Source: the human T2T-CHM13v2.0 reference genome, Homo sapiens
Strand: one strand, 5' to 3'
DNA length: 64,000 nucleotides
Assembly (NCBI RefSeq): GCF_009914755.1
Contig: NC_060930.1
The translations under genes were made by a program, and so were the position numbers. Within the stretch, counting starts at the first letter, position 1. Every line of letters starts with the position of its first letter. A model generated the notes under the pieces. The model saw nothing but the letters and a program-made list of their open reading frames with translations. It was not told the DNA's origin and did no database searches. Shown here piece after piece: positions 2,694 through 61,829 of this stretch.

Positions 2694-4389
2694 TGAAGTA
2701 AGAAGCGGGTGATAAGGAAAGTGAAACCAATAATTTCACATAGTCCCTGGAAGCCCGTTGCTATAAAGAACTTTCAGCCTGAAGTCCAAAGAGAGACGAA
2801 AATTTTAAAATGAATTGGACTGCAGTTTTCAATCCCTGAAAATGAGTCACAGCCTTTTTGTGGCAGTGTGCCCTGGGCTTCTAACCGTCCTCTCCCTGCC
2901 CCAGCTGCCTTGAGGTCCCGGCCAATGGTTTCAACACTCAGGCTAGGAATGCCAAGGCCCGGCAGAGCGAGGCTGTGGAAGCCTTGGCATAAGCGGAAGG
3001 GAGGATCTGAGGGAGAATGGGACAAGAGAAGTCGGAAAGAAGGAGTTAGGGCAGGAGAACAAGGAGAAATCCCTGTCCCCCAAATTGGAGAGAGGGGCGA
3101 TTGGGACTCCAGACTGGAAGGAGGCACGGATCCCTGAGTGCTTGGTGTGGAGGCAGAGGACCCGCAGAGCCACCCCGTCCTCCCTGCCTTATCCAGCGTC
3201 CCCGCCGCCACACCCCCAGCATCTCCCCCAACCCCACTTTTACTTCATTATCTGCCCCTGGTTCTCTCACCACTCGAGCCCCTGCTTTCCTCCTTCACTC
3301 CCAAACATGCACACGTTCCCTCTGCACGGGTGTTTGGAACACCAGCCATCCCCCACCCCCTACCTTGTGCCAGCAGGAGATGTTTGTCCTTCTGCCGTCT
3401 CTAGGATGGAGAGGCCTGAGGTGACTGCTTCCTCAGAGTCTCTGTGCAAACTCTCTGAGGAGCAGAAACCAGTTCAGTCTCTCTGGGTGTGGAGAGGCCG
3501 GCCTAGCAGAACACCCGTCCACCATGCAAACCGGGTGGGGCCACCTGTCAACTGTCACGTGTGAGTGATTCTAGGACAGGGTAACTCGTCCAGAATTGGA
3601 TCCAATTCAGTACTGGATTCACCATCAGTAGAAGGACCAAGACCAGACTCAAGTCCCAGCCACGAAATTCTAGAAAGGATTTAATGTAATTTTAGCAGTT
3701 GTTGGAGACCAGCATGTGATGGCATACATATGTTTTCCTTGATATGTAGGTGGGGGCCCCCACCTTTTTTCAGGGTTTAGGCTTCTGCAGGTCCTGGCAT
3801 AGCTGTGACAGCGGCCCTACCTCATTTCTGGTGAGTGCTGGCTCCCTCTATTGCTTGGTTTCTGTGCAAACACTGCATTATCGTCCTGCCCTCTTGAGAC
3901 CTGGAGCTCCTGCCCCCTGAGCTCGTGTTCGCACTGTGTGTCACTGAACCTCGCTGTTTTCTTCTTGCAACTCCATTCCCCTCTGCAACTGGAAGACCAG
4001 CACTTCTCCTGAGTCTTCCTTAAAAGACACCCTGCCCACTTCCTTACAAAGCCCCCACCAAAGTGACACCAGCTACTTGTGAATGTAGCCAACTTTACTG
4101 AAGATTTAGAGGTTATGTTATAAGGCTGTGAATAATTTTAAAAAAAAATCACCTATTTGCTCGACCTCTTTCTTATCTCTTCTTTGGACTAGAAATAAAA
4201 TATCTATGATTTGACCACACTGTCATCTAGTACTCGACCCTGGTTCTAGGCCACCGTCCTCCTGGCCAGGGTGATTGCAGTGCTGCCCTACTTGGTTCTC
4301 CGTGCCTGTCCCCACCTCCCAAATGGCTACAGCGCAGCCAGAGTGATCTTCAGAACCTCATCACTCACGCCCCCCTCTGCTCCAATTCT

Positions 4390-5655
4390 CCAAAAGTGCC
4401 CTTTTTCTCTCAGTAAAACCAAAGTCACTACAGATGCCTAGAGAGCCCTGCACAGTCTGGCCAGCTGTCCATTATGCCCCCTCACTCGCTCAGTTCCGAC
4501 CTCCACCCTCGGCCTCCTTGCTGGTCTTCAGAGCCCTGCAGATGTCCCCGTGCCTTGGGACTTTGCATTGCCCTCCCTTCAGCATGGACTGCCCTTCAGG
4601 CATCTGCCCGGCTCACTCCCACTCCTGCTCCCAGGTGGCACACCCTTCCACGCCTGGTTCTCCCTGCCCCTCGCATTTGGAACCCTTGTATTTCTTTCTT
4701 TCTTTCTTTTTTTAAAATTGTGGTATGATTCATGTAACGTGATTTTTCATCTTAACCACTGTTAAATGTAAAGGCCTCTATTTCATAATGGGAGACCTCT
4801 GCCTGCCCAGGCCATCCTGGACCTTCTTCACCTGAACTTGTTCCCCTAAAGCAATGACCACTTTAAAACATACCTTAGTAAGCCGCGCACAGTGGCTTAC
4901 ACCTGTAATCCCAGCATTTTGGGAGGTCAGGGAGGCTGGATCACCTGAGGTTGAGTTTGAGACCAGCCTGGCCAACATGTTGAAACCCTGTCTCTACTAA
5001 AAATAAGAGAATTAGCTGGGTGTGGTGGCCAGTGCCTGTAATCCCATCTACTCAGCTTATTGAGTCAGGAGAATCACTTGAAGCCAGGAGGCGGAGGTTG
5101 CAGTGAGCCGAGATCACGCCACTGCTTTGCAGCCTGGGCAACAGAATGAGACTCTATCCCTATAAACAAACAATCAAACAAACCTTATTAACTTTTAATT
5201 GTGGTTGCAACAAATTACTGCAAATTTAGTGCCTTAAAACAACATACATTCATTCTTTTACCATTCTGGAGCTCAGAAGTCTGAATAGTCTCACGGAGCT
5301 ATCATCACTGTGCTGTCAGGGCTGTGTTCCTTTGGGAGGCTCTCGGGGAGAACCTGTCTCCTCCTTGCCTTTTCCAGCTGCTCAACTGCCCACGTCCATG
5401 GCTCAGGACCCCATTTCCTCATCTTCAAAGGCAGCTCCACCAGGCTGAGTCCTGGTTTACATGAGAACACTACCCCTCCATGGCTGGTTTTCCCAGGGCA
5501 GCTGATTAGCCACCTCAGCTCCATCCACAGCTTTCACCGCCCTTTCCATGTACCCCAACACAGAGGTTCCAGGGACTGGATCTGCCATCCTGAGGATTGG
5601 AGAGGGAATTCTTCTGCCCAACACACATACCATATAATTTACATATCTATCCATT
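4390..5655 (+). repeat. Left arm of an older local inverted duplication (L2 + unique sequence + MLT1); partner is 8700-9370 plus 12628-12980
   Basis: Reverse-complement similarity includes non-repeat sequence (4780-4870 vs 9250-9345); mirrored ORF text 5457..5654(-) vs 8642..8920(+). Confidence 0.8.
4881..5183 (+). mobile_element. Alu (S-like)
   Basis: Alu dimer flanked by ACCTTAGTA/ACCTTATTA; absent from the inverted partner arm. Confidence 0.9.
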
Positions 5656-8779: not shown

Positions 8780-9250
8780 GAGGATGCCGGTGTGAATCCC
8801 TGGAACCCCCCACTGGGTTATATGGAAAAGGGAGTGAAGGCTACAGATGGAGTTGAGGTTGCTCATCATCTGCCCCGGAAACGGGGTGATTTTCTGGATT
8901 TCCCTGGGGTTCCAATGTAATCACAGGATCTTTATAGAGGAAGAGGCAGACGGAAGAGGGAGAACCAGATGAGGGGCACAGTGAGGACTTAATCTGATGG
9001 AACTGCCTTTGAAGATGGGGAAATGGGCCCTGAGCCATGGATGTGGGCAGTTGGAGAAGCTGGAAAAGGGGAGAAGGAGACAGGTTCTCCCCGAGAGTCT
9101 CCTGAAATAACAGCCCTGACAACACAGTGATGTTAGCCCATTGAGATCCATTCCAACTTCAGATCTCTAGAATGGTAAGAGAACAAATTTGTGTTATTTT
9201 AAGCCACTAAATTTGTAATTTCTTACAATAGCAATCAAAAGCTAACACTG
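8780..9250. mobile_element. MLT1 (C/D-like) MaLR LTR; inverted paralog at ~5195-5590
   Basis: TTTAAGCCACTAAATTTG and CTGGAAAAGG...TTCTCCCC MLT1 motifs. Confidence 0.7.
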
Positions 9251-15838: not shown

Positions 15839-17112
15839 TTCCATGCAGAGGGAGAGGAAACTGGTACAGGCTTCCTGAAGGACAGGGTAACAGGGCTCAC
15901 CAAGAGTCAAAAATATCCACATCTGAATGAAGAATATGTATTCATATGCGTTTCAAATGGCGGCAAAGACTCCCTGGAAAGATGAGAAGAATCCAATCAA
16001 ATTTCGTCCCGGGCTGTGGCCAATGAGAGTGGATGCAGGCAGGGGCCGGGGAGCCTTTCACACATGACTTTTCATGGTTTCGATCCTGAAACAGGTGAAA
16101 ATATGGAGGTGAAGGAGTAAGGAAGAGTGGGGCCGGGAGCCCCGGGGACGGTCACCAAGTATGCTCGCCAGATCTGTTGTGGGCCATGAGGGTCCGGAAA
16201 CGTGGAACCCGGGCAGGGGCGCGCGGGGCTGCTGCAGTGACGAGGCACTGGTTCTAGATATTTACCCAACTGTGTTGTCATAAGGATGATATTACAGGTG
16301 ATTGCTGATTTCAACCACAGATGACTTTCGGGGAAAGTTGGCTCCTGAGGGTTTCAGTTTCCACCTAGCCGCGTGCTCTCCGGGTTCTGCGTGCTCCTCC
16401 CAGGGCGCCCGCTGTGCCCCAGTTCTGGACCTGGGTCCTACCCAGTGGAAACCAACGAGTGGGTGCCCCGCCGCCCACCGCAAGAGTTCTTTATATATTC
16501 AGGATACCAGTCCCTTACCAGATACATCATTTTCAAATATTTTCTCTCATTCTGCAAGTTTTTTTTTCTTTCTAAATGGAATCCTTTTTGAAGCACAAAA
16601 GTTTTATATTTGCATGAAATGAAATTAAACTACCTTTTATTTTGCCATCTGTGCTATTGGCATACAGTACTTAAGAAGCCTTTGCCAAATCCAGGGTCAC
16701 AAAAATTTACTGCTCTATTTTCTTCTGAGACTTTCATAGTTTCATGTCTTATGTGGACATCTGCCATTCATCTAGAGCTAGTTTTTGTGTGTGCTGTAAG
16801 GAAGGGGCCCGCCTCATTCTTCTGCATGCAGCATCCAGTTGTCCCAGCACCATTCACTGTAGTGTACAATGCACCTGCCCAACCTCCTGTCCCTCCCTCC
16901 TGCACTCAGCATCAGAAGTGCGTCCTGCTGAATGGTTCCCCCAGGGTTTCCACCAATGAATTCCCCTCATGTGAATCCCATATAGGCATCTGCTTCTCAG
17001 AGGACCTGGACTGAGGAGTGGATTCACTGGAGGAAATTATATTTCATAAGATAGAACATTCTGAGAATAGTAACACTTGGCATACCCCTTACTACATCAA
17101 AAGTAAGAAATT

Positions 17113-30239: not shown

Positions 30240-32540
30240 TGAAGGGCTTAGCTTAGGGTGAGGACTGGACAGAGCCCCTGGGTCCCATTCTGCCCCCAGC
30301 CACTCAGGCAATATCCTCTTTTCCCCTTCTCTCTCAGCCTCTTCTCACCCTAGGGCTGTACCCAAAGCTCTGAATGAGACTGTCCCTGCCCCGCCCCATC
30401 CACTCCTGGTCCAGCTCAGCAGTGACCTTGGAACTCCAGGAGCAGCTCAGTACCCCTGTCTCCGAGTCAGCTCTGCTCCAGGCAGGGCCAGAATCTGGAG
30501 TGTGCAGGAGGCCGGATGGCAGGGGCATTGCCCCAGGACTGAGCCGTATTCTGAGGGTTCCCAGAGACCTGACCTCCTACTTGTATACAGTCTTTTCAGT
30601 CAGCGTCTGCCTTAAAGGCTGTGACCCAGGCACCTTCCCTGGGAATTAACTCCAGCATTGTCCTCTGGGTCGACACAGTCCTTGGCAGCCTCTCCTTCCT
30701 GGGGTTACACCCAGTTCCTCTGCTCTTCTCCAGTGGATGGAATCTCCTTCTCCTTGACACACAGCATCTGGAGCCACCAATCTGCTGCCCCACTCAAATG
30801 TGAGGACCGCACATGCCTGAGCTCCTGCTGTCTGCACACCACGCACCGTGGGGGTTCCTTATGACCAGAGACACAGTCTGAAACAGACCTGAATTTGCTA
30901 AACCCTCTAGAGCTCGACAGGACCTAAGCCTTGATATGGTTCTGTGTGCTCCTCCCAGGGCGCCCGCTGTCCCCGAGCTCCGGGCCTGAGTGCTGGCTGG
31001 CGGAGACCCACAGTGGGTGCCCCGCTCCCGGACGATGCCCCTGGGCTTCCAGATCCAGAGCCTCGGGACGAAACTGTTTCAGGAAGACCCGGAAGGACTC
31101 GCCGGTCGCGGCAAGGGACAGGCGGTTCCTGAGACAGGAGGAGCCAGGAAATGCGGGGCCTGGTGGGGTGAGGAGCACGGGGTTCCTCCTTCATCCTCGC
31201 GGGGACTTTGCCACCGGCTCAGTGTGGAGGCCTCACCGTCCCGCCCGGATCCGTGGGGCTCCGAGAGTGTGGCCCCTGCGATGACCCCCCCATCCTCCTT
31301 GCCCTGGGGCTGCTGCGGGAGGGCGCCCGGGCAGCACTAGGTCCTGAGTGTCCAGGGTCCGGCAGGGGCTTCCCGTTGTCGCCTCCCTGACCCCGCCGCT
31401 TGCGGTCCAGGGCTGCTGGTTTCTCCGCTGGTCTGGGAGGCCCTAGCATGGACGTCGTGAGGCGGAGAAAACCTTGGGATAGGTGGAAAAGAAGGATTGG
31501 AGGGAGGGCGGCAGAAAGGGAGAGGAAGGAAACAGGGCCGGAGAACAATGAGAAACCCCCACCACGAAAATGGGGAGAGGGGGACACGCGCACAGCCCCC
31601 ACACTCCACCGACTCTCCGTCTCCTGCTCTCTGCCCAGTAAGGAACACAGGCCCCACCCCCTCCACCCTCACTGTGTTTGGGATCAGCCATTTCAGCGGG
31701 GTGAGGCGTCCCCTTGTGGGTGCGATTGGCATTTCCCTGAGGGCTGTGAACACTGAACACCTTTTCCTGGGCTCACTGCGATTTGCATTCTTCTTCTGAT
31801 GCCAGCGGGCAAGGGGAGGTCCCCAAACGCCGGTGGGACCTCGACTCCAGCCAGTGTCCAGATTCTTGATATTGCCGGGGAAATTAATTCAAGGACCAGT
31901 AGGAAATAGAGAAAGGACGGAGATTTATTGTAAAAGGCAAAGTACACAGTCAAGTAAAGGGAGTGCAGGGGAACTCGAGAGAGAAGCAGGTGCAAGTTTG
32001 GGGCTGCCACCTTTCTGGGTTTCTTTAACCAAGGAGTGGAATATTCATGAAAATTCCTGGAAGAAGGTAGAGATTTCTCAGAACTGTGGTGCCCCGCATT
32101 TTTACACTAAATATAAGTGTTCTCAGAACTGCTCAGGAGCTGGCTGGTGTGTGTTTAGTATGTTAATCAGCATGTAATGAGGTCCTAGGTGAAACCTAGG
32201 TCAAATGCAGGGCCTTGTTGGGTCCAGTCATTCTTAGCCAGCTTGGTCCACATGCTGTTTTTCAGCATCTTATCAGCCCAGAGCCTCTGCACATATTTCA
32301 ACAGATTCCTTTTGCTAGTCACCTGAAACTGCTGCCCAAAATTTTCTATTCTTTTGAGACCACCGTGTAGTATACCTGTCTTACTTTGGAGAAATGTCTA
32401 TTCAAATTCCTTGCATATATTTAAATTGGGTTATTTCACTTTATAATGTTGAGTTGCAACATTATATATTATATATAATATATAATTGCAATTATATTTT
32501 GTTGCAATATTATATATTCAGAATACCAGTCCCTTACCTG
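30240..32540 (-). repeat. Fourth partial copy: ULBP intron-4-like sequence fused to the CpG/MER41 block
   Basis: 30240-30935 resembles 21700-22100 and 23090-23290; 30940-32540 is the reverse complement of ~42680-44230. Confidence 0.75.
31797..32383 (-). mobile_element. MER41-family ERV1 LTR (copy A)
   Basis: Reverse complement of GACAGGTATACTACACGGTGGTC...GGCAGCAGTTTCAGGTGACTAGCAAAAGGAA; subfamily not determined. Confidence 0.75.
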
Positions 32541-39820: not shown

Positions 39821-42789
39821 GATCAATAAAGAGTTTATTTCAGGGGATTGGGGCAGTTCCTCTCACCCTGCAGATCAAGATGCCCTGAGGGCAAAGAGCA
39901 GAGGGGTGCTCTCTGGTGGCCCAGCAGTTCTGCCCCAGGGGAGAGGTTTCTCTTTTACTACCGCGAAAACCCACAGGACGCTGCTTCATCCCAGAGCCAA
40001 GGATACCAGGAAGGAAGGTCAGAGTGAGGAGGTGTCTGAGTGTTTCAGATCACACAGTGACATACTGCTTGATGGCTTCAGAAATCCTTCATGAGCTGGG
40101 AGACAGCCCCAGAGGTGACAGGTGAGTGGGTGGGATGGGACAGACACAAGAACTCTCGAGATGACACCCACTTTCTCCCGTGTGTTTATGTATGTCTGTG
40201 TGTGCACGTGCGTGTGTGTGTGTGTCTGTATTTGTGCATGAACGTTTGTATGTTTGTATGTGTGTGTCTGTGTGCCTGTGTGTGTGCATATGTGTGTGTG
40301 CCTGTGTAGTGTGTGTGTGAGACTGTGCATGCGACTGTGTGTGTTTGTGTGAGACTATGCATGCATGTCTCTCTGTGTGTGTGAGACCACATGTGCATAT
40401 CTCTATGTGTGTGTCTGTGTGTGTGTGGGAGTGTATGCTATATGTATATGTATGAATGGTGACTTGATTTCCTGTGAAGGGAGACAGGGACCCCAGGACA
40501 GGTTCCTGCCCACCCCTCCTTCCCTACCTTCCTTCCAGATATTCCCTCCTCCCTGTGGAAAGAGTCTACCCCAGTAACTAAGGGTTCATTACTGCAGACT
40601 TCTCATAGCTCCCCAAAGTTCTATGATATTTGCACCCCAGGCCTCCTCCTCATGCTTGTCCCTCTGCTGGGTGCCCTGTCTTCTCCTCCCACCTGGCCAC
40701 ACTGTATTCTTCCAGTTTCTACAAGAGCAGTCTGAAATGCCACCTCCCAAGAAACCTCCATGCAACTTCCCAAGCAGAATGAGTCACCCCCTCTTCTGCC
40801 CTTTCATAGCCCCAACCATCTCGAGGACAACACATCAGCAGCAGCAGCCACGTAGATGTTTGTTTCTGTACCTGGATTCTAAGTGCCTGAAGGACTGGAC
40901 ATATCTGGTTTCTAAGTTCCAGGAGGACTGGACACATCCATCACCCACGTGTAAACCCAGCACCTAGCACAGTGCCTGCCATACGATAGGGTTTAAGACG
41001 CATGGGAGGAATCTAATCATCAGACTACCAAAGGGCTGCTAGAACTCAGAAAGGGATCCCCATCATTTGGGGGATGGGATAAAGGTCTTCATTTCTGTTC
41101 TTTCCAGCACCAACCTCCATGGCTCCACTCATCCCTGCTCCTTCCTCCTATTAAGATTGGCTGGTCAGGAGAGGGGTAGGGGCAGGAGCAGCTATACCTG
41201 GTCTCCTCCACCATCCACGGTGGGGTGCACTCTTGGTGGGACCTGGTGAGCATGACAGCACCTGGGCCTAGGGGACCTGGAGCCTCCACAGACCCACAGA
41301 GAGCAAGAGGAGCTGTTCAGCCACTTGCAGAGACAGCCAGAGAGTGCTTCAAGGACTGCGTGGAGCTCTGGAGAAGCAGGGAATTCAGGGCCCTCTTTTG
41401 TGAGGCATGAGAAATTTAGGCAGGATCATGTCTACAAAAGAGGCTGTCACTTTGGCTTATCAATATTTTCACCTCGTTACCCCTTCCAGATCAGAATGGG
41501 TGCTTTATTTGTTTTTATGGATTATTGTGTCAACCAAAACGAGAGTTCAGAGTCACTCTAAAGATTTGAAACTCCTTCAAGATTTGATGAATGCGCATTT
41601 TGATGCCACATCTATTTTTAGAAAGCTGTGGCTGAATAAAGCATTTTATTGTATAGCATTACCCAAGTTACTTATATGGAATTTTAATCTACATAATGTC
41701 ATACAACCATGTGAAAAGTAAAAACTAAAAAGCCGTAACTTTTTGGGTCAGAATTGGTGACTCATGCCTGTAATCCCAGAACTTTGGAAGGCCAATGTTG
41801 GAGGAACACTTGAGGCTAGGAGTTGGAGATCAGCCATGGCAAGTAACATGGTGAGACCCTGTCTCTACAGAAAATTTAAAAAATTGACCAGGTGTAGTAG
41901 GATGTGACTGTAGTCCCAGCTCCTCAGGAGGCTAAGGTAGGAGGATCACTTGAGCCTGGGTGACAGTGTGAGAGCCTGTCTCAAAGAAAACAACAACAAT
42001 TGCAGCAGAAACAACAACAAAAAATATAAACCCAAGTAAACTAAATTGACAGAAGAATTGTGGGACCCAAATGACCAAATAATGTGATTTTTCACTTTTG
42101 ATGAATTAAAGGGTATGCTGAGTGCCAGTATTCCCAGAATGTTCCATCTCATGAAATATGATTTCCTCTGGTGAACCCACTCCCTAGTCCAGGTCCTCCG
42201 AGAAGCAGGTTCCTACATGGGTTTCACATGAGGGGATTTCATTGGTGCAAACCCTGTGAGAACCGTTCAGTAGGAGGCAATTCTGACCCCAAGTGCAGGA
42301 GGGAGGGACAGGAGGTTGGGCAGGTGCCTCCTACACTACAGTGAATGGTGCTGGGACAACTGGATGCTGCATGCAGAAGAATGAGGCTGACCCCTTCCTT
42401 ACAGCACACACAAAAACTAGTTCTAGATGAATGGCAGATGTTCACCTAAGACATGAAACTATGAAAGTCTCAGAAGAAAGCAGAGCAGTAAATTTTTGTG
42501 ACCCCGGATTTGGCTAATGCTTCTTAAGTACTGTATGCCAGTAGCATAAATGACAAAATAAAAGGTAGTTTAATTTCATTTCATGCAAATGTAAAACTTT
42601 TGTGCTTCAAAAAGGACTCCATTTAGGTTAAAAAAATCCTTATAGAATGAGAGAAAGCATTTGAAAATCGTATATCTAGTAAGGGACTGGTATCCTGAAT
42701 ACATAAAGAACTCTTGCAACCCAACATTATAAAGCAAAATAACCCAATTTAAATATATGCAAAGAATTCAAAAAGATGTTTCTCCAAAG

Positions 42790-43381
42790 TGAGACAGGTA
42801 TAATACAGTGTGGTCACAAAAGAAGAAAAAAACTTTAGGCAGCAGTTTCAGGTGACTAGCAAAAGGAATCTGTTGAAATATCTGCAGAGGCTCTGGGCTG
42901 ATAAGACCCTAAAAGACAGGGTATGGACCAGGCTGGCTAAGAATGAGTGGACCCAACATGGCCCTGGGTTTGGCCTCGGTTTCACCTAGGACCCTATTAT
43001 ACACTAATTGACATACTAAACGCACACACACCAGCGTCTTGGCAATTCAGAGAACACCAATATTTGGTGTAAAAATGGGTGGCACCACAGTTCTGAGCAG
43101 TCTCCACCTTCTTTTAGGAATTTTCATGAATATTCCACCCCTTGTTAAAGAAACCCAGAAAGGTGGCAGCCCTAAACCCCCTTGCACCTGCCTCTCTCTT
43201 GAGTTCCCCTGCATTCCCTTTACATGAGTGTGTACTTTCCCTTTTACAAAAAAATCTCCGTCCTTTCTCTATTTTCCTACTGGTCCTAGAATTCATTTCC
43301 CCAGGCGGTGTCAAGAGCCCGACACCGGCTGGGGTCGAGGTCTCATCAGAGTTTGGGGACCACCGGTTGCCCACTGGCATC
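42790..43381 (+). mobile_element. MER41-family LTR (copy B)
   Basis: TGAGACAGGTATAATACAG start; paralog of copies A and C. Confidence 0.75.
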
Positions 43382-46300
43382 GGAAGAAGAATGCAAATGG
43401 CAGTGAGCCCAGGAAAAGGTGCTCAGTGTCCACAGACCTCAGGGAAATGCCAACAGCACCCACAAGGGGACGCCTCACCCCGCTGGAATGGGTGACCCCA
43501 AACACTGTGAGGCTGGAGGGGGTGGGGCCTGCGTTCCTTACAAGGCAGAGAGCAGGAGACTGAGAGTTGGTGGAGTGTAGGGCTGTTCCTGTGTCATCCT
43601 CTTCCCATTTTCCTGGCGGAGGTTTCTCTTTGTTCTCTGGCCCTACCTGCTTCCTTCCTCTCCCTTTCTCTGGTTCTCCCTCCCGTCCTTCATTTCCAAC
43701 CATCCCAAGGTTTTCTCTGCCTCAAGACGTCCATGCTCGGGGCCCCCAGCCCAGTGGAGAAACCAGGAGCCCTGGACCGCGAGCGGCGGGGTCGGGGAGG
43801 CGACAACGGGAAGCCCCTGTTGGATCCTGGGCACTCAGGACCTAGTGCGCCATGGGCGCCCTCCCGCAGCAGCCCCAGGGCAAGGAGGATGGGGGTCCTC
43901 GTGGGGGCCACACTGTCGGATCCCCAGGGATCCGAGCGGGACTGTGACGTCTCCACACTGAGCCGGTGGCAAAGTCGCCGCGAGGATGAAGGAGGAACCT
44001 CGTGCTCTTCACCCCACCAGGCCCCGCATTTCCTGTCTCCTGCCACGGTTCCTTGTCGCGACCGGCGAGTCCTCCCAGGTCTTCGAAAGGCCGTTTTGTC
44101 CGGAGGCTGTGGACCCGGAGGCCCGGGAGCATCGGCGGGCAGCGTGGCACCCACTCGGCGGTCTCAACCGGGCAGGACCCGGGTCCGGAGCTCGGGCGAA
44201 GCGGGCGTCCTGGGAGGAGCGCGCAGAACCCGGAGAGGACGCAGCAGGGTGAAAACTGAAACCGCATATGCGAACTGTCTCCGAAAGTCATCTGCGGTTG
44301 AAATCAGAAATCACCTATAATATCCCCTTTGTGACAACACCGTTGGGTAAATATCTAGAACCGGTGCCTCGTCACTGCAGCAGCCCCGCACGCAGCTGCC
44401 CGGGTTCCCCTCCCCGGACCCTAGTGGCCCCCAACAGATCAGGCGGGCCCACCGTGTGACCGTCCCTGGGACTCTCGGCCCCACTCTTACTTACTACTTC
44501 ACCTCCACATTTTCACCTGTTTCAGAATCAAAACCCTGAAAAGTCATGTGTGAAAGGCTCCCCCGCCCCTGCCTGCGTCCACTCTCATTGGCCACACGCC
44601 AGGGAGGAAAGTTTATTTGATTCTTCTCATCTTTCCAGGGAGTCTTTATGCCGTTTCAAACGAATATAAATACATATTCTCAATTCAGACGCGGATATTT
44701 TTGACCCTTGATGAACCCTGTCACCCTGTCCTTCAGGAAGCCTGTACCAGTTTCCCCTCCCTCTACGGTGGATGTTTCACCATCCTCTGCCCAAGCTGGG
44801 TCATCACAATCACAGACAAGAGTGTCGCCAGCATTGCCATCCTATGACATGAGATGCTTTAAAGGTGCATTACTTCGCACAGCAATTCTGTGTCTGGAAA
44901 TCTATTCTACACAATGAAATTGTGATTCATGCAAGCACAGTTTCTGCAGCATTTCGCTTCTCTAAAAGTCACTGGAGACCGTCTGGATCTTCAGACACAG
45001 ACACTGGTTACTTTTGTTGTGATGCAGTCATTCTATGTAATGTGCAGAGATAAAAAGGAAAAAATCTGTATGTGCAGGTATTGCAAGATCTTCAAAGTGT
45101 GTTATTTTGAGATAGAATCTGTGTTCAGCAGAGTGCCTATGGGTTTATATTTGTTTTAAAAACCAGAATTGATACATAAACACGTATCTACTGTTAGTAA
45201 GGAAAACAGTATTTCCATAACTTATTGCCAGTCTCTTTATCCATTTTAGGAAAAATCGATATACTTGAAAAGCCACGGTGGCAGGAATTGGTCATCACCC
45301 ACCAGGATTCTACACTGCCCTACAGGTGATCCCAACTGAGGTTGCCAGAGGAACAGGATGTGGAATGCAGTCGCGTTTCAGAGAGGAACCTAAAGTCAGA
45401 ATGGACCAGGGGTCTTGCCCTGACCTCTGCCTCTTCACCCAACCCCCACCTGGTCAGGCAGTGACCCTGGAGGGGCTGGGATGATCCTGGGAGAGCAGTG
45501 AAATGGGGAGCCAATGGTGGGAGCATGGTGAACATGGAGAGCCCAGACCCCACACCATCTGGGGAGGAGCTCATGTGATGCTGGGAGCACTGGGAAGACA
45601 GGGAGCCTGGACACAGCACTCACTGCTCCTCCCATCTGGGACAGGATTGGGGTGGGTGATGAGAAAAGTTTCCTGAGTAACACAGTTCCCAATCCTGGCA
45701 GAATAACTCACCCCAGTTGCACTCACAGCCAAGACCCACTCAGCCCCTGGACCAGTCTAACACAGGGCTTGGTAAATCCAGGAGTGAATACTACTGAGGC
45801 ATCTGCCAGGGCATAGGAAACAGTAACAAGAGGACGGCTCAGCTAGTGGCTCAGACTATCTTGCCCCACACTCTCCAATATTGAGTAGGGAGTAAGCCTT
45901 GAGCCCAGGAGGTTGAGGATTCAGTGAATTATGATCGTGCCACTGCACTCCAGACTGGTGACAGAGTAAGAGTCTGTCACACATGCTTACACACACAAAT
46001 TAAATTGTGTGAGCAGTTGTCACACAGGGAGATCTGGATGCACTCACTGTGGACCCAGGTCTCAGCGAGCAGGAGGGTGTTCTGTATTGTGGGAACATGA
46101 GGGACACGCATGGGACCGGGCATTTGTGCCTAGCTTTGAAGGGTGGCTGGCCCTTTGCCCAGGGCGAAGAGGCCAGCAGAATGCACTAACAGTGGGGAAC
46201 CACCAGGAACTTTCACTTGAACCTGCTCTGCTGAGCCCCCTGTGCCATCCGTGGACCTGGGCGAGGGAGGCTGCTGAACTGGGAGCTCAGGGCCCATCTC

Positions 46301-57773: not shown

Positions 57774-58730
57774 TTAACCAGGTGTAGTAGCATGTGACTG
57801 TAGTCCCAGCCCCTCAGGAGGCTAAGGTGGGAGGATGACTTGAGCCTGAGAGTTTGAGGTTGCAGGGAGTTGAGATGGTGCCACGGCACTCCAGACTGGA
57901 TGGCAGAGTGAGAGCCTGTCTCAAAGAAAACAACAACAAAACAACAACAGAAGAAGAAATAACAAAACAAATTAAACACAAATAAGCTAAGTTGACAGAC
58001 TTGTGGGACCCAAATGACCATATCATGCAATGTCCTTCTTTTGATGTAGAAAGGGGTATGCTGAGTGCCAGTATTCCCAGAATGTTCCATCTCATGAAAT
58101 ATGATTTCCTCTGGTAAACCCACTCCTTAGTCCAGGTCCTCTGAGAAGTAGATGCCTACATGGGATTCACATGAGGGGATTTCATTGGTGGAAACCCTGG
58201 GAGAACCGTTCAGCAGGACGCACTTCTGACCCCAAGTGCAGGAGGAGGGACAGAAGGTTGGGCAGGTGCATCCTACACTACAGTGAATGGTGCTGGGACA
58301 ACTGGATGCCACATGCAGAAGAATGAGATGGGCCCCTTCCTTACAGCACACACAAAAACTAGCTCTAGATGAATGGCAGATGTCCAGCTAAGACATGAAA
58401 CTATGATTGTCTCAGAAGAAAATAGAGCAGTAAATTTTTGTGACCCTGGATTTGGCAAATGCTTAACTACTGTAGGCCAGTAGCAAAAATGGCAAAATAA
58501 AAGGTAGTTTGATTTCATTTTATGCAAATGTAAAACTTTTGTGCTTCAAAAAGGACTCCATTTAGAAGGTAAAAAGAAAACTTGCAGAATGAGAGAAAAT
58601 AATTGAAAATCATGTATCTGGTAAGGGACTGTTATTCTGAACATAAAAGAACTCTTGCAACTCAATATTATAAAATGAAGTAACCCAATTTAAATATATG
58701 CAAGGAATTTGAATAGACATTTCTCCAAAG

Positions 58731-59322
58731 TGAGACAGGTATACTACACGGTGGTCTCAAAAGAATAGGAAATTTTAGGCAGCAGTTTCAGGTGACTAGC
58801 AAAAGGAATCTGTTGAAATATCTGCAGCAGCTCTGGGCTGGTAAGTTGCTGAGAAACAGCATGTGGACCAAGGTGACTAAGAATGAGTGGATCCAACATG
58901 GCCCTGGATTTGACCTAGGTTTCACCTGGGACCTCATTACATGCTGATAAACATAATAAACACATACCAGCCAGCTCCCTAGCAGTTCTGAGAATGCCCA
59001 TATTTGGTGTAAAAATTCGAGGCACCAGAGTTCTGAGAATCCCTGTCCTTCTTCCAGGAATTTTCATGAATATTCCATCCCTTGGTTGAAGAAACCAGGA
59101 AAGGTGGCAGCCCCAAACCCCCTTGCACCTGCCTCTCTCTTGAGTTCCCCTGCATTCCCTTTACACGAGTGTGTACTTTCCCTTTTACAAAAAAATCTCC
59201 GTCTTTTCTCTATTTTCCTACTGGTCCTAGAATTCATTTCCCCAGGCGGTGTCAAGAGCCCGACACCGGCTGGGGTCGAGGTCTCATCAGAGTTTGGGGA
59301 CCACCGGTTGCCCACTGGCATC
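58731..59322 (+). mobile_element. MER41-family LTR (copy C)
   Basis: TGAGACAGGTATACTACACGG start; paralog of copies A and B. Confidence 0.75.
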
Positions 59323-61829
59323 GGAAGAAGAATGCAAATGGCAGTGAGCCCAGGAAAAGGTGCTCAGTGTCCACAGACCTCAGGGAAATGCCAACAGCAC
59401 CCACAAGGGGACGCCTCACCCCGCTGGAATGGGTGACCCCAAACACTGTGAGGCTGGAGGGGGTGGGGCCTGCGTTCCTTACAAGGCAGAGAGCAGGAGA
59501 CTGAGAGTTGGTGGAGTGTAGGGCTGTGCCTGTGTCATCCTCTTCCCATTTTCCTGGCGGAGGTTTCTCTTTGTTCTCTGGCCCTCCCTGCTTCCTTCCT
59601 CTCCCTTTCTCTGGTTCTCCCTCCCGTCCTTCATTTCCAACCATCCCAAGGTTTTCTCCGCCCCACGACATGCATGCTCCGGGTCCCCAGCCCAGCGTAG
59701 AAACCAGGAGCCCTGGACCGCGAGCGGCGGGATCCAGGAGGCGACAACCTGACGCCCCTGCCGGACCCTGGACACTCAGGACCTAGTGCGTCCCGGCGCC
59801 CTCCTGTAGCGGCCCCAGGGCAAGGAGGATGGGGGTCCTCGCGGGGCCCACACTGTCGGAGCCCCACAGATTCGAGTGGGACGGTGAGGTCTACACACTG
59901 AGCCGGTGACAAAGTCCCCGCGAGGATGGAGGAGGGACCTCGTGCTCCTCACCCCAACAGGCCCCGCATTTCCTTGATCCTTCTGACACGGGAACCAAGG
60001 GTCCCTTGCCGCGACCAGCGAGTCATCCCAGGTCTTCGAAAGGCCGTTTTTTCCCGGACGCTGTGGACCCGGAGGCCCGGGGGTATCGGCCGGCAGCGGC
60101 GCACCCACTCCGGGGTCTCCACAGGGCAGGACCTGGGTCCGGAGCTCGGGCGAAGCGGACGCCCTGGCGGAGCCCGCAGAAGCCAGAATGGACGCGGAGG
60201 GGTCGAAACTGAAACCCCCAGGAGCGAACTTTCCCCCAAAGTCATCTGTGGTTGAAATCAGCAATCGCCTATAACATCCCCGGTGTGTCAACACCGTTTG
60301 GTAAATATCTAGAACCAGTGCCTCGTCACTGAGGCAGCCCCGCGCGCCCCTGCTTGGGTTCCGCGTCCCAGGACCCTCGGGGCCCACAACAGATCAGGCG
60401 AGCCCATCCGGTGACCCTCCCTGGGGCTCCGGCCCCACTCTTTCTTACTTCTTCACCTACATATTTTCACGTGTTTCAGGATCGAAACCATGAAAAGTCA
60501 TGTGCGAAAGGCTCCCCCGCCCCTGCCTTCGTCCACTCTCATTGGCCACAGCCCGGAATGAGACATGATTGGATTCTTTGAATCTTTCCAGGGAGTCTTT
60601 ATGCCATTTCAAACGCATATGTATAGATATTCTTCATTCAGACTTGGATATTTTTTGCTCTTGATGAAACCTGTCTCCCTGTCCTTCAGTTTCCCCTCCC
60701 GCTATAGTGGATGTTTCACCATCCTCTGCCCAAGCTGGGTCATCACAATCACAGACAAGAGTGTCGCCAGCATTGCCATCCGTGACATGAGACGCTTTAA
60801 AGGTGCATTAATTTGCACAACAATTCTGTGTCTGGAAATCTATTCTACACAATTAAGTTGAGATTCATGCAAGCACAGTTTCTGCAGCATTTAGTTTTTC
60901 TAAAAGTAACTGACTGGAGACCGTCTGGATCTTCAGACACAGACACTGGTAACATTTGTTGTGATGCAGTCATTCTATGTAATGTGCAGAGATAAAAAGG
61001 AAAAGAATCTGTATGTGCAGGTATTGGAAGATCTTGAAAGTGTGTTATTTTGAGATAGGATCTGCGTTCAGCAGAGTGCCTATGGGCTTATATTTGTTTT
61101 AAAGACCAGCACTGATACATGTACACATCTCTACTGTTAGTAAGGAAAACAGTATTTCCATAACTTATTGCCAGTCTGTTTGTCCGTTTTAGGAAAAATC
61201 AATATAGCTGAAAAGCCATGGTGGCAGATATTGGTCATCACCCGCCAAGATTCTACACTGCCTTACACATGGTCCCAGCTGAGGTTGCCAGAGGAACAGG
61301 ATGTGGAATGCAGTCACGTTTCAGTGAAGAACCTGAAGTCAAACTGGACCAGGTGTCTTGTCTTGATTTCTGCCTCTTCACCCAACCCCCACCTGGTCAG
61401 GCAGTGACCCTGGAGGAGCAGGGACGATGCTTGGTGGGCAGTGAAGATGGGGAGCCAATTTTGGGAGCATGGTGAACATGGAGAGTCGGGACCCCACAGC
61501 AACTGGGGAGGAGCTGGTGTGATGCTGGGAGCACTGGGAAGACAGGGAGCCTAGGCACAGCACTCACTGCTCCTCCCATCTGGGACAGGATTGGGGTGGT
61601 GATGAGAAAAGTTTCCTGAGTAGCACAATTCCCAAGCATGGCAGAATGGCTCGCCCTGGTTGCCACTATGCCCAGCCCATCCTACACTTTATATTCTGTC
61701 AAGAGCAATTTTTAAAACACTGTATTCAGAACATAGACAAAGATAACCAACCACATGGGGAGATAAGGTAGCAATAACAGGAACCAGCTGAAATGTGCAA
61801 CAGAGACAGAAAATACATGGAACCTCTAG

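What the first reader, a model, noticed from the sequence alone, without database searches (positions are those of the whole stretch)
42790..44600. Repeated candidate interferon-response cassette: GAS-bearing LTR plus CpG-rich ISRE/GC-box/CCAAT module
Seen: a gene-less module occurs at 42.8-44.6 kb and 58.7-60.55 kb, and partly at 16.0-16.5 kb and 30.9-32.4 kb. The IRF motif RAAACTGAAACC is intact in all three copies that include it (16350-16361 minus, 44252-44263, 60205-60216) while adjacent bases differ. CCAAT/ATTGG (~16020, 44588, 60541), a GC box (~44560, ~60515) and high CpG are also kept. The copies differ: C has three GAS plus ISRE; B has one GAS (43046) plus ISRE; A has three GAS and no ISRE; the 16-kb copy has ISRE only. 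Inference: a duplicated and differently degraded regulatory unit or lncRNA promoter that could give each ligand gene a different cytokine input. Motifs alone do not show function.
Basis: partly seen in the sequence, partly recalled or inferred. Interest (0 to 1): 0.7.

Follow-up and report, generated by a model that had tools for sequence, protein, structure and literature searches.

The report
Old MER41E LTR copied with ULBP genes
One ancient retroviral end-piece (a solo LTR of the MER41E family, carrying its family's three STAT-type sites) landed beside a host CpG island about 45-60 million years ago and was then copied five times as the human ULBP/RAET1 immune-ligand genes duplicated; this is an ordinary kind of remnant that may, but is not shown to, lend these genes cytokine control.

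Summary

It has two unrelated parts.
- **LTR (42790-43382).** This is a real 593-bp solo LTR with TG..CA ends and a 4-bp target duplication, inserted inside an older repeat. I name it MER41E (ERV1). It matches, over its full length, the LTR at the PAPPA2 start site and one of the two LTRs in the GCSH promoter, both of which print calls MER41E. The three GAS sites are the family's own feature, and two of them have the printed 21-bp spacing.
- **CpG-rich ISRE/GC-box/ATTGG part.** This is not viral. It occurs only in this gene cluster and is a host CpG island (CpG o/e about 0.75-0.78).

All copies descend from one insertion, multiplied by segmental duplication. There are five LTR copies (three in the window), plus one copy with a 1.4-kb deletion.

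Divergence dates the family to about 52-59 My. Print places its entry in the simian ancestor. The oldest paralog split is about half that depth.

The ISRE-like motif is less conserved than several neighbouring blocks. Interferon responsiveness of these copies is plausible from the family's record but untested, and print reports that IFN-gamma lowers NKG2D ligands.

The parts
42790..43382 (+). Copy B: solo LTR, MER41E family (593 bp; starts TG; the terminal CA is changed to CG in B and C and kept in A, D and E)
   Evidence: The bounds come from the sharp rise and fall of column shares among 35 dispersed copies. It matches the PAPPA2-TSS LTR and the GCSH promoter LTR that print names MER41E.
42786..42789 (+). 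Left copy of the 4-bp target-site duplication (AAAG)
   Evidence: Uninterrupted copies of the older host repeat read straight through this site.
43383..43386 (+). Right copy of the target-site duplication (GAAG; one base differs, identically in all five paralogs)
43046..43054 (+). GAS site 1 of copy B (TTCAGAGAA), the only intact GAS site in B
43091..43120 (+). Decayed tandem GAS sites 2 and 3 of copy B (21-bp spacing; intact in C, A, D and E)
   Evidence: The 21-bp spacing is printed for MER41B and MER41E in PMC2897888.
42344..42789 (+). Older high-copy interspersed repeat into which the LTR inserted. It resumes at about 43387-43489.
   Evidence: 2116 candidates at 68-72% identity, ending at the LTR edge. 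Two of three uninterrupted copies continue into B 43387-43470 and 43388-43489, with local scores 20 and 17 against a shuffle mean of about 10.
43383..43720 (+). CpG-poor stretch between the LTR and the CpG island. It is partly the continuation of the older repeat, and is near-identical between B and C (conversion tract about 43250-43650).
43721..44480 (+). Copy B: host CpG island (760 bp, GC 0.66, CpG o/e 0.78), found only in this gene cluster
   Evidence: RefSeq marks 43312-44693 as an H3K27ac-H3K4me1 hESC enhancer and 44182-44481 as 'active region_25269'.
44253..44263 (+). ISRE-like 11-mer of copy B (AAACTGAAACC). The strict core GAAANNGAAAC is not met in B.
44562..44591 (+). GC box (44562-44570) and inverted CCAAT box, ATTGG (44587-44591). 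The ATTGG lies in a 14-bp block, 44583-44596, invariant in all five paralogs that have it.
58731..59323 (+). Copy C: MER41E solo LTR with three GAS sites (58986, 59031, 59052)
59662..60709 (+). Copy C: CpG island (59662-60434, o/e 0.75) and proximal block. It holds the ISRE-like motif at 60205-60216, the GC box at 60516-60524 and ATTGG at 60541-60545.
31797..32383 (-). Copy A: MER41E solo LTR (587 bp) with three GAS sites (32054, 32075, 32120), lying 3.3 kb upstream of the RAET1G start in the same sense
30938..31796 (-). Copy A: the part after the LTR, and the CpG island cut short. Homology to B ends at B 44230, so there is no ISRE-like motif, GC box or ATTGG.
15841..17111 (-). 16-kb copy. Both flanks are kept, but B 42717-44133 (the LTR plus most of the CpG island) is deleted, with the junction at 16480. 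The ISRE-like motif is at 16350-16360, ATTGG at 16020-16024 and a GC-box variant at 16041-16049.

Best explanation
SHOWN.
- A single MER41E (class I / ERV1, gammaretrovirus-like) provirus integrated into an older repeat. The site lay a few hundred bases from a host CpG island in the flank of an ancestral RAET1/ULBP gene. The provirus collapsed to a solo LTR.
- The LTR and island were then copied together as the gene cluster grew by segmental duplication. This gave five LTR-bearing copies: B upstream of ULBP2, A upstream of RAET1G, C between ULBP2 and ULBP1, and D and E outside the window. A sixth copy lost the LTR through a 1.4-kb deletion. Later gene conversion made the copies mosaic.
- The three GAS sites are the family's own U3 sites. 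They sit about 94, 49 and 28 bp upstream of the position where the PAPPA2 copy of the family starts transcription.
- The ISRE-like motif, GC box and ATTGG belong to the host CpG island.

INFERRED.
- The island has stayed unmethylated in the germ line (CpG o/e 0.75-0.78 in four paralogs), whereas the LTR has not (o/e 0.20-0.33). The island therefore most likely acts as an orphan promoter or enhancer.
- The LTR copies that keep the tandem 21-bp GAS pair (C, A, D, E) can probably bind STAT dimers or tetramers when chromatin allows. That would add a conditional cytokine input. B has largely lost this.

My estimate is about 0.9 for the structural account and about 0.35 for any real cytokine-dependent effect on a ULBP/RAET1 gene.
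For: Real LTR.
- 265 candidates, of which 35 of the 40 scored are dispersed copies.
- The edges are sharp, at 42790 and 43382.
- A perfect 4-bp TSD occurs in 15 of 35 dispersed copies and a one-mismatch TSD in 9 of 35. A perfect 5-bp or 6-bp TSD occurs in 0 of 35.

Name.
- 40 of 40 copies of the family (35 dispersed and 5 cluster) match the LTR that spans the PAPPA2 gene start, at mean 76.3% identity over its full length. Print says PAPPA2 is driven by a MER41E solo LTR that contributes to exon 1 (PMC11007075, passage).
- 35 of 35 dispersed copies match one of the two LTRs within 2 kb of the GCSH start. The other LTR there matches the CEP290 promoter LTR at 78-81%. Print lists GCSH as 'MER41B; MER41E' and CEP290 as 'MER41B' (PMC6473030 Table 3).
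- A 24-mer of the LTR has 173 genome matches at up to 3 mismatches, against 1 for the reversed control. That indicates a family of hundreds, not thousands.

GAS sites are ancestral.
- Among the 35 dispersed copies, the three positions carry a GAS in 19, 24 and 29 copies, and no GAS occurs anywhere else in the LTR.
- The SECTM1 MER41 tandem GAS aligns with sites 2 and 3.

Single insertion. All five paralogs share the same flanks and the same mismatched TSD.

Non-viral island. 43382-44135 and 44136-44800 match only this cluster.

CpG figures are, the mosaic pattern, and the RefSeq enhancer marks.

STAT1 on MER41E. Print gives ln ratio 1.65 on IFN-gamma and spacing 21 (PMC2897888 Table 2). It also lists STAT1 and STAT3 sites in MER41E (PMC6473030 Table 4).
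Against: - No repeat library (Dfam/Repbase) was available. The name therefore rests on two copies named in print and on the assumption that the RefSeq starts in T2T match those the papers used.
- The GCSH copy is only 72.5% identical on average to the dispersed copies.
- Cluster copies are further from the dispersed copies (K2P 0.302) than those are from each other (0.258).
- Against function: the LTR is CpG-depleted, and B lost two GAS sites with no sign of constraint.
- GAS sites 1 and 2 are kept about as well as ordinary LTR positions: 37% and 15% of windows score at least as high. Only site 3 stands out, at 2%.
- The ISRE-like motif is not among the invariant blocks, and it fails the strict core in B.
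- RefSeq shows no transcript start in the module.
- Print reports that IFN-gamma lowers NKG2D ligands through STAT1, and that IL-6/STAT3 does likewise (PMC10452210).
- No paper in the library holds both 'MER41' and 'ULBP'.
Confidence: 0.7

Rival explanations
1. Inert passenger. The LTR and its motifs are neutral remnants carried along by the duplications. Neither the LTR nor the ISRE-like motif has any effect on the ligand genes. Any chromatin marks reflect the CpG island alone.
For: - LTR CpG o/e is 0.20-0.33, which suggests germ-line methylation.
- B lost 2 of 3 GAS sites.
- Retention of GAS sites 1 and 2 is unremarkable among 585 windows.
- The ISRE-like motif is not an invariant block.
- In B and A the RefSeq enhancer tiles cover the island but not the GAS part of the LTR.
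- Print reports that IFN-gamma lowers these ligands rather than inducing them.
Against: - Four of five copies keep all three GAS sites after tens of millions of years.
- Site 3 is among the best-kept 2% of positions.
- The family is reported to gain STAT1 signal on IFN-gamma.
- All three in-window LTRs lie in the sense orientation upstream of a ligand gene.
Confidence: 0.45
2. Unannotated promoter. The CpG island, with its GC box, ATTGG and (in B) a TATA-like stretch, is the start site of an unannotated non-coding RNA or of an alternative 5' exon of the downstream ligand gene. The LTR is incidental.
For: - The island meets the usual CpG-island criteria in four paralogs.
- The longest invariant block in B, C and the 16-kb copy (19 bp, 44578-44596) holds the ATTGG. 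Other invariant blocks follow at 44629-44641.
- RefSeq marks the region as an H3K27ac-H3K4me1 enhancer and an 'active region'.
Against: - No RefSeq transcript starts there.
- The TATA-like stretch is present only in B.
- The ORFs in the island have no Pfam match, and the paralogs differ by indels that are not multiples of three.
Confidence: 0.3
3. Proviral 5' end. The LTR and the following CpG-rich stretch together are the 5' LTR and leader of a degraded provirus.
For: The CpG-rich stretch directly follows the LTR in the sense orientation.
Against: - 43382-44135 matches nothing outside the five cluster copies, whereas the LTR has hundreds of relatives.
- The older repeat interrupted by the LTR resumes 4 bp after it, across a 4-bp duplication. 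The LTR is therefore solo.
Confidence: 0.02

Closest known systems
MER41E solo LTRs (ERV1), for example the LTR that provides the PAPPA2 placental start site
   Same: Full-length homology at mean 76.3%, a 4-bp TSD, TG..CA ends, a tandem GAS pair 21 bp apart, and a mostly solo state.
   Different: In RefSeq these cluster copies start no annotated transcript. They were multiplied by host segmental duplication rather than by retrotransposition. Copy B has lost the tandem pair.
MER41B-type interferon-inducible enhancers (Schmid and Bucher 2010; Chuong et al. 2016 as summarised in PMC9963469)
   Same: A related LTR with a homologous tandem GAS core. The SECTM1 element aligns at 65% over 393 bp, with its GAS pair on our sites 2 and 3. 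The setting is also similar, next to innate-immunity genes.
   Different: It is a different subfamily, showing only 62.6-68.6% identity over 118-227 bp to the CEP290 copy that print names MER41B. No binding or knock-out evidence exists for these copies. The neighbouring genes are not known interferon-induced genes.
ERV-Saru LTR, the AIM2 enhancer (Frith 2025, PMC11905727)
   Same: A MER41-like LTR with a 21-bp tandem GAS next to an innate-immunity gene.
   Different: Identity to our family is only 60-70% over 86-310 bp (12 of 25 hits seen). ERV-Saru is a tiny family: about 12 full-length relatives, and about 14 copies in print.
Orphan CpG islands in segmentally duplicated gene clusters
   Same: The island meets the length, GC and CpG o/e criteria, carries enhancer marks in RefSeq, and has no annotated transcript start.
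   Different: No transcript-start or methylation data were examined here.

Membership tests
MER41E (ERV1 LTR) | Sequence homology to copies that print names MER41E | tested here: met
   PAPPA2 start-site LTR: 40 of 40 family copies match over the full length, at mean 76.3% (named in PMC11007075). GCSH promoter LTR Y: 35 of 35 dispersed copies match, while the second LTR there matches the CEP290 copy named MER41B (PMC6473030 Table 3).
MER41E (ERV1 LTR) | Class I integration signature: TG..CA ends and a 4-bp target duplication (print: group I, TSD 4; PMC11905727 table) | tested here: met
   A perfect 4-bp TSD in 15 of 35 copies, one mismatch in 9 of 35, and a perfect 5-bp or 6-bp TSD in 0 of 35. 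The cluster copy reads AAAG/GAAG.
MER41E (ERV1 LTR) | Tandem GAS pair with 21-bp centre-to-centre spacing (printed for MER41B and MER41E only; PMC2897888 Table 2) | tested here: met
   Sites 2 and 3 start 21 bp apart. They are intact in C, A, D and E, and in 24 and 29 of the 35 dispersed copies respectively. B has lost both.
MER41E (ERV1 LTR) | Best match to the Dfam/Repbase MER41E model | not testable with these tools
RefSeq soft-masking carries no names and does not mask this LTR at 100 bp or more.
MER41E (ERV1 LTR) | Simian-restricted insertion age (print: entered in the simian ancestor) | tested here: inconclusive
   No other primate genome was on hand. Divergence gives K2P 0.258 between dispersed copies (0.230 at non-CpG sites). 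That is about 0.115-0.129 per lineage, or about 52-59 My at 2.2e-9 per site per year (rate recalled). This is compatible with the printed 43-69 My bracket.
MER41E (ERV1 LTR) | Interior region and tRNA-Arg primer site of ERV-MER41E | not tested
   The copy is solo, and inner genes were off limits and not needed for naming.
MER41B | Close homology to a copy that print names MER41B | tested here: not met
   CEP290 promoter LTR: only 7 of 35 dispersed copies hit it. The six shown are 62.6-68.6% identical over 118-227 bp around the GAS core.
Interferon-inducible ERV enhancer (MER41.AIM2 type) | Cytokine-induced STAT1/IRF1 occupancy and dependence of a neighbouring gene on the element | not testable with these tools
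   Only motifs and family-level print were available. Print on the ligand genes points to down-regulation by IFN-gamma.
CpG-island promoter | Length over 200 bp, GC over 0.5, CpG o/e over 0.6 | tested here: met
   B: 760 bp, GC 0.66, o/e 0.78. C 0.75, D 0.76, E 0.76, A 0.59, 16-kb copy 0.67.
CpG-island promoter | An annotated or measured transcript start | tested here: not met
   No RefSeq transcript starts in 42790-44800 or in its paralogs within the window. CAGE data were not available.

The most novel reading that the evidence does not exclude
One MER41E insertion beside an orphan CpG island was amplified by segmental duplication. This gave the primate NKG2D-ligand cluster up to five STAT/IRF-responsive modules, whose unequal decay now gives each paralog a different cytokine response, either induction or the reported STAT1/STAT3-dependent repression. 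ULBP2's copy has lost the tandem GAS pair. RAET1G's copy has lost the ISRE-like motif and the CCAAT block. The copies near ULBP1 and RAET1K are intact.
Probability: 0.15. Interest if true: 0.6.

Novelty: new member of a known kind. Interest (0 to 1): 0.3.

Why it matters
MER41-type LTRs are the textbook case of retroviral remnants that spread STAT1 sites near immune genes. The ULBP/RAET1 genes encode stress ligands for the NKG2D receptor, and viruses and tumours try to silence them. If the LTR copies are bound by STATs, they would offer a concrete sequence basis for the puzzling, paralog-specific effects of interferons and IL-6 on these ligands.

As it stands, the result is mainly a clean annotation. 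It separates the viral part from the host part, names and dates the LTR, and shows that the LTR insertion predates the expansion of the gene cluster. That makes the LTR a useful time marker for that expansion.

Tried and rejected
1. MER41B, my first guess from recall.
- BLAST of the LTR against 80 kb around AIM2 gave nothing at first.
- Two genome searches with a stretch I wrongly took for the AIM2 upstream element hit only Alus and a paralog.
- The true element, with a tandem GAS, turned up at L003 about 4130-4570. It proved a poor reference: about 12 full-length relatives and 60-70% identity to our family. Frith 2025 explains this, since it is an ERV-Saru LTR.

2. A '600-bp repeat shared by the IFI6, SECTM1 and APOL1 loci', which I briefly took for MER41. 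It was pairs of Alus and I discarded it.

3. The reading 'LTR plus leader of a provirus'. It is rejected.

4. Coding potential of the CpG island. The ORFs are low-complexity and three of them gave no Pfam match above cut-off.

5. Naming the older repeat around the LTR. By recall it looks like the end of a LINE-1 ORF2.

6. Literature.
- 'MER41' plus 'ULBP' returned 0 papers.
- A six-term search on ULBP, ISRE, STAT1, IRF1 and enhancer, and one on RAET1/ULBP duplication in primates, listed nothing specific to this module.
- Supplementary tables were closed and may hold coordinates that would confirm or correct the naming. Examples are Table S1 of PMC11007075 and the supplementary tables of PMC6473030.

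7. Two dispersed copies (L043, L051) share sequence to the left of the LTR and may be 3' LTRs next to interior sequence. I did not follow them, because inner genes were off limits and not needed.
Full report
**What is there.** The window is the RAET1/ULBP cluster on chr6q25. BLAST of 42000-45500 against the window finds three other copies:
- copy C at 57952-61443 (88.1% over 3522 bp);
- copy A at 32459-30938 on the minus strand (85.1%);
- a 16-kb copy in two abutting pieces, 17111-16480 and 16480-15847.

The 16-kb copy therefore lacks B 42717-44133. Two further copies lie outside the window. D is at chr6:151213466-151215443 and E at chr6:151236611-151238565, both minus.

By the gene table:
- B lies 4.0 kb (LTR end) to 2.8 kb (ATTGG) upstream of the ULBP2 start.
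- A lies 3.3 kb upstream of the RAET1G start.
- C lies 4.2 kb past the ULBP2 end and 10 kb upstream of ULBP1.

In each case the LTR is in the gene's sense.

**Two unrelated parts.** A genome search with 42780-43400 gave 265 first-look candidates. Of the 40 scored, 5 are the cluster copies and 35 are dispersed over many chromosomes at 74-80% identity. The same search with 43382-44135 found only the five cluster copies. The search with 44136-44800 found only the query itself and matches elsewhere in this cluster. So the left part is an interspersed repeat. The CpG-rich part with the ISRE-like motif, GC box and ATTGG is host sequence peculiar to this cluster, not a proviral interior.

**The LTR is real and solo.** I fetched all 35 dispersed copies with flanks.
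- The share of the commonest base per column jumps from about 0.4 to about 0.85 at B 42790. It falls again after 43382.
- The element is 593 bp and starts TG. It ends CA in A, D and E, and has a G at the last base in B and C.
- A perfect 4-bp duplication flanks 15 of 35 dispersed copies, and 9 more have one mismatch. None of the 35 has a perfect 5-bp or 6-bp duplication. Chance would give about 0.14 perfect 4-bp matches in 35.
- The cluster copy has AAAG on the left and GAAG on the right, identically in all five paralogs.

The left flank, 42344-42789, is itself an older high-copy repeat (2116 candidates at 68-72% identity), and its matches end at the LTR edge. Two of three uninterrupted copies of that repeat continue, right after the equivalent of AAAG, into sequence that aligns with B 43387-43470 and 43388-43489. 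The local scores are 20 and 17, against shuffle means of about 10 and maxima of 19 and 15. The third copy was not significant. This serves as an empty-site comparison. The LTR sits inside an older repeat, with a 4-bp duplication and nothing proviral beside it.

**Family.** My recalled guess was MER41, because of the GAS sites.
- Print states that the MER41B consensus has two GAS sites in tandem, 21 bp apart centre to centre. Its Table 2 lists spacing 21 for MER41B and MER41E only. It also mentions a MER41 with tandem GAS 5 kb upstream of SECTM1 (PMC2897888, passages read).
- That SECTM1 element lies at L019 about 8820-9223. It aligns with our LTR at 65% over 393 bp (E 2e-31), with its two GAS sites on our sites 2 and 3. 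The families are therefore related, but distantly.
- The AIM2 element was an even poorer match, at 60-70% over 86-310 bp (12 of 25 hits seen). It has only about a dozen full-length relatives. Frith 2025 explains this: it is an ERV-Saru LTR (636 bp, about 14 copies; PMC11905727, passages read).

Two copies named in print then settled the name.
- **PAPPA2.** PMC11007075 (passage) says PAPPA2 is driven by a MER41E solo LTR that also supplies part of exon 1. In the 2 kb around the RefSeq PAPPA2 start, all 40 of 40 copies of our family (35 dispersed and 5 cluster) match one full-length LTR at L060 about 870-1450, on the plus strand, at mean 76.3% (70.0-83.2%). The gene start at position 1201 lies inside it.
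- **GCSH.** PMC6473030 (Table 3 and methods) lists sense-oriented solo LTRs within 2 kb of the start: 'MER41B; MER41E' for GCSH and 'MER41B' for CEP290. The GCSH upstream 2.5 kb holds two LTRs. One is hit by 35 of 35 dispersed copies (mean 72.5%). The other, split by an Alu, matches the CEP290 element at 78-81%. Our family touches the CEP290 element only around the GAS core. Only 7 of 35 copies hit it, and the six shown are 62.6-68.6% identical over 118-227 bp.

A 24-mer from the LTR has 173 genome matches at up to 3 mismatches (22 exact), against 1 for the reversed control. That fits a subfamily of hundreds. I therefore name the LTR MER41E, in the ERV1 superfamily. PMC5753468 tabulates MER41E under ERV1 with MER41-int, and Frith lists ERV-MER41E as group I with TSD 4. 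No Dfam or Repbase model could be run, so the name rests on these anchors.

**Age.** K2P distances between copies are as follows.

| Comparison | K2P |
|---|---|
| Dispersed x dispersed, 595 pairs | 0.258 (SD 0.044) |
| Dispersed x dispersed, CpG-prone columns dropped | 0.230 |
| Cluster x dispersed | 0.302 |
| Cluster x cluster, lowest (C-D) | 0.073 |
| Cluster x cluster, highest (B-D) | 0.172 |
| Cluster x cluster, mean | 0.129 |

- The dispersed figures give about 0.115-0.129 per lineage. At the commonly used 2.2e-9 per site per year (a recalled rate) that is about 52-59 My.
- The 35 copies are the best hits to B, so the sample is biased towards long, well-kept copies.
- Print places the entry of all MER41 subtypes in the common ancestor of simians, after the split from other primates. 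The same paper gives about 43 and 69 My for those nodes when describing ERV-Saru. My estimate is compatible.
- All five paralogs share the flanks and the mismatched duplication, so the insertion predates every duplication.
- The deepest paralog split (0.172/2) is about half the depth of the cluster lineage (0.302 minus 0.129). That puts the oldest surviving duplication at very roughly 20-35 My.
- This is a lower bound, because gene conversion is evident. B and C are 99-100% identical over 43250-43650 but only 75-88% on either side. C and D are 99-100% identical over 43650-44750.

**The GAS sites.**
- In the LTR, TTCNNNGAA occurs at three positions, B 43046, 43091 and 43112.
- C, A, D and E have all three, and B has only the first.
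- Among the 35 dispersed copies the three positions carry a GAS in 19, 24 and 29 copies. Ten copies have three, 17 have two and 8 have one. No GAS occurs anywhere else in any LTR. The triplet is therefore the family's own U3 feature.
- I measured how often an identical 6-base tuple is kept at each of 585 positions. Site 1 is ordinary (37% of windows score at least as high), site 2 is in the top 15% and site 3 in the top 2%.
- The PAPPA2 gene start maps to B 43140. The sites therefore lie about 94, 49 and 28 bp upstream of the place where one family member starts transcription.
- Print gives MER41E a ln ratio of 1.65 for STAT1 ChIP tags on IFN-gamma (3785 against 618 tags). It also lists STAT1 and STAT3 sites in MER41E.

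**The host part.**
- B 43721-44480 has GC 0.66 and CpG o/e 0.78. The paralogs give C 0.75, D 0.76, E 0.76, A 0.59 and the 16-kb copy 0.67. The LTR has o/e 0.20-0.33.
- Keeping such CpG density in several paralogs for tens of millions of years suggests that the island escapes germ-line methylation, whereas the LTR does not. This is an inference.
- RefSeq marks 43312-44693 as an H3K27ac-H3K4me1 hESC enhancer and 44182-44481 as 'active region_25269'. H3K4me1 tiles cover the C and A islands.
- The 11-mer AAACTGAAACC is present in B, C and the 16-kb copy: 3 matches against 0.10 expected. D has it too, and E differs by one base.
- The strict core GAAANNGAAAC is met in C and the 16-kb copy but not in B.
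- In the five-way alignment of B 44140-44765, invariant runs of 11 or more bases are 44284-44294, 44296-44307, 44537-44550, 44583-44596 (holding ATTGG) and 44629-44641. The ISRE-like motif is not among them. The GC box is intact in B, C, D and E.
- ORFs in the island are low-complexity and have no Pfam match.

**How it most likely works.**
- The structural history is shown: one MER41E insertion next to a host CpG island, reduced to a solo LTR, multiplied with the genes, then unequally decayed and partly homogenised.
- Function is inferred. The island probably acts as an orphan promoter or enhancer. The LTR copies that keep the tandem pair can probably bind STAT proteins in permissive chromatin.
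- Whether that raises or lowers ligand expression is open. A review states that IFN-gamma reduces NKG2D ligands through STAT1 in some tumours, that IL-6/STAT3 does likewise, and that reports for IFN-alpha are mixed (PMC10452210, passages).
- No paper in the library links MER41 and ULBP.

**Verdict.**
- The remnant is real, is a solo LTR of MER41E, and is about 45-60 My old. It is a new instance of a well-known kind, not a new kind.
- Interest is modest, at 0.3. It would rise if copy-specific STAT or IRF occupancy were found.

Noticed in passing
window 42344-42789 and 43387-43489: An older high-copy interspersed repeat (2116 candidates at 68-72% identity) is split by the LTR. By recall it resembles the end of a LINE-1 ORF2, but a Pfam scan of two open stretches of intact copies found nothing.
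   Followed up: partly
window 43250-43650 versus 59190-59590: B and C are 99-100% identical here but only 75-88% identical on either side. This is a gene-conversion tract spanning the LTR end and the first 270 bp after it.
   Followed up: partly
window 59590-60700 versus chr6:151213466-151214580 (L009): C and D are 99-100% identical across the CpG island and proximal block but only 91-98% identical in most of the LTR. This points to a very recent inverted duplication, or conversion, between the ULBP1-side and RAET1K-side copies.
   Followed up: no
window 44284-44307, 44537-44550, 44629-44641: Blocks of 11-14 bases are invariant in all five paralogs and are better kept than the ISRE-like motif. 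I could assign no factor to them.
   Followed up: no
window 44514-44519 and paralogs: An E-box differs between copies. It reads CACGTG in C, D and E, and CACCTG in B and the 16-kb copy. It sits between two GAAA-rich stretches.
   Followed up: no
window 8123, 15710, 22685 (GAAAGGGAAAC); 52650: Further matches to GAAANNGAAAC lie in or near RAET1 gene 3' parts and the RAET1F pseudogene, possibly at paralogous positions. There are 8 matches in the window against 0.64 expected.
   Followed up: no
L003 about 4130-4570 (chr1, upstream of AIM2): The AIM2 enhancer LTR has only about 12 full-length relatives in the genome and is about 630 bp long. This independently agrees with its reassignment to the low-copy ERV-Saru in Frith 2025.
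   Followed up: yes
L057 (GCSH upstream, gene sense) 447-1158: The MER41B-like LTR in the GCSH promoter is interrupted by an Alu at about 545-797.
   Followed up: no
L043 and L051 (left flanks): Two of the 35 dispersed MER41E copies share homologous sequence to the left of the LTR, with purine-rich ends. They may be 3' LTRs still attached to interior sequence. I did not look further because inner genes were off limits.
   Followed up: no
window 16480: The 16-kb copy abuts the RAET1F pseudogene fragment in the opposite orientation and carries a clean 1416-bp deletion that removes the LTR and most of the island.
   Followed up: partly
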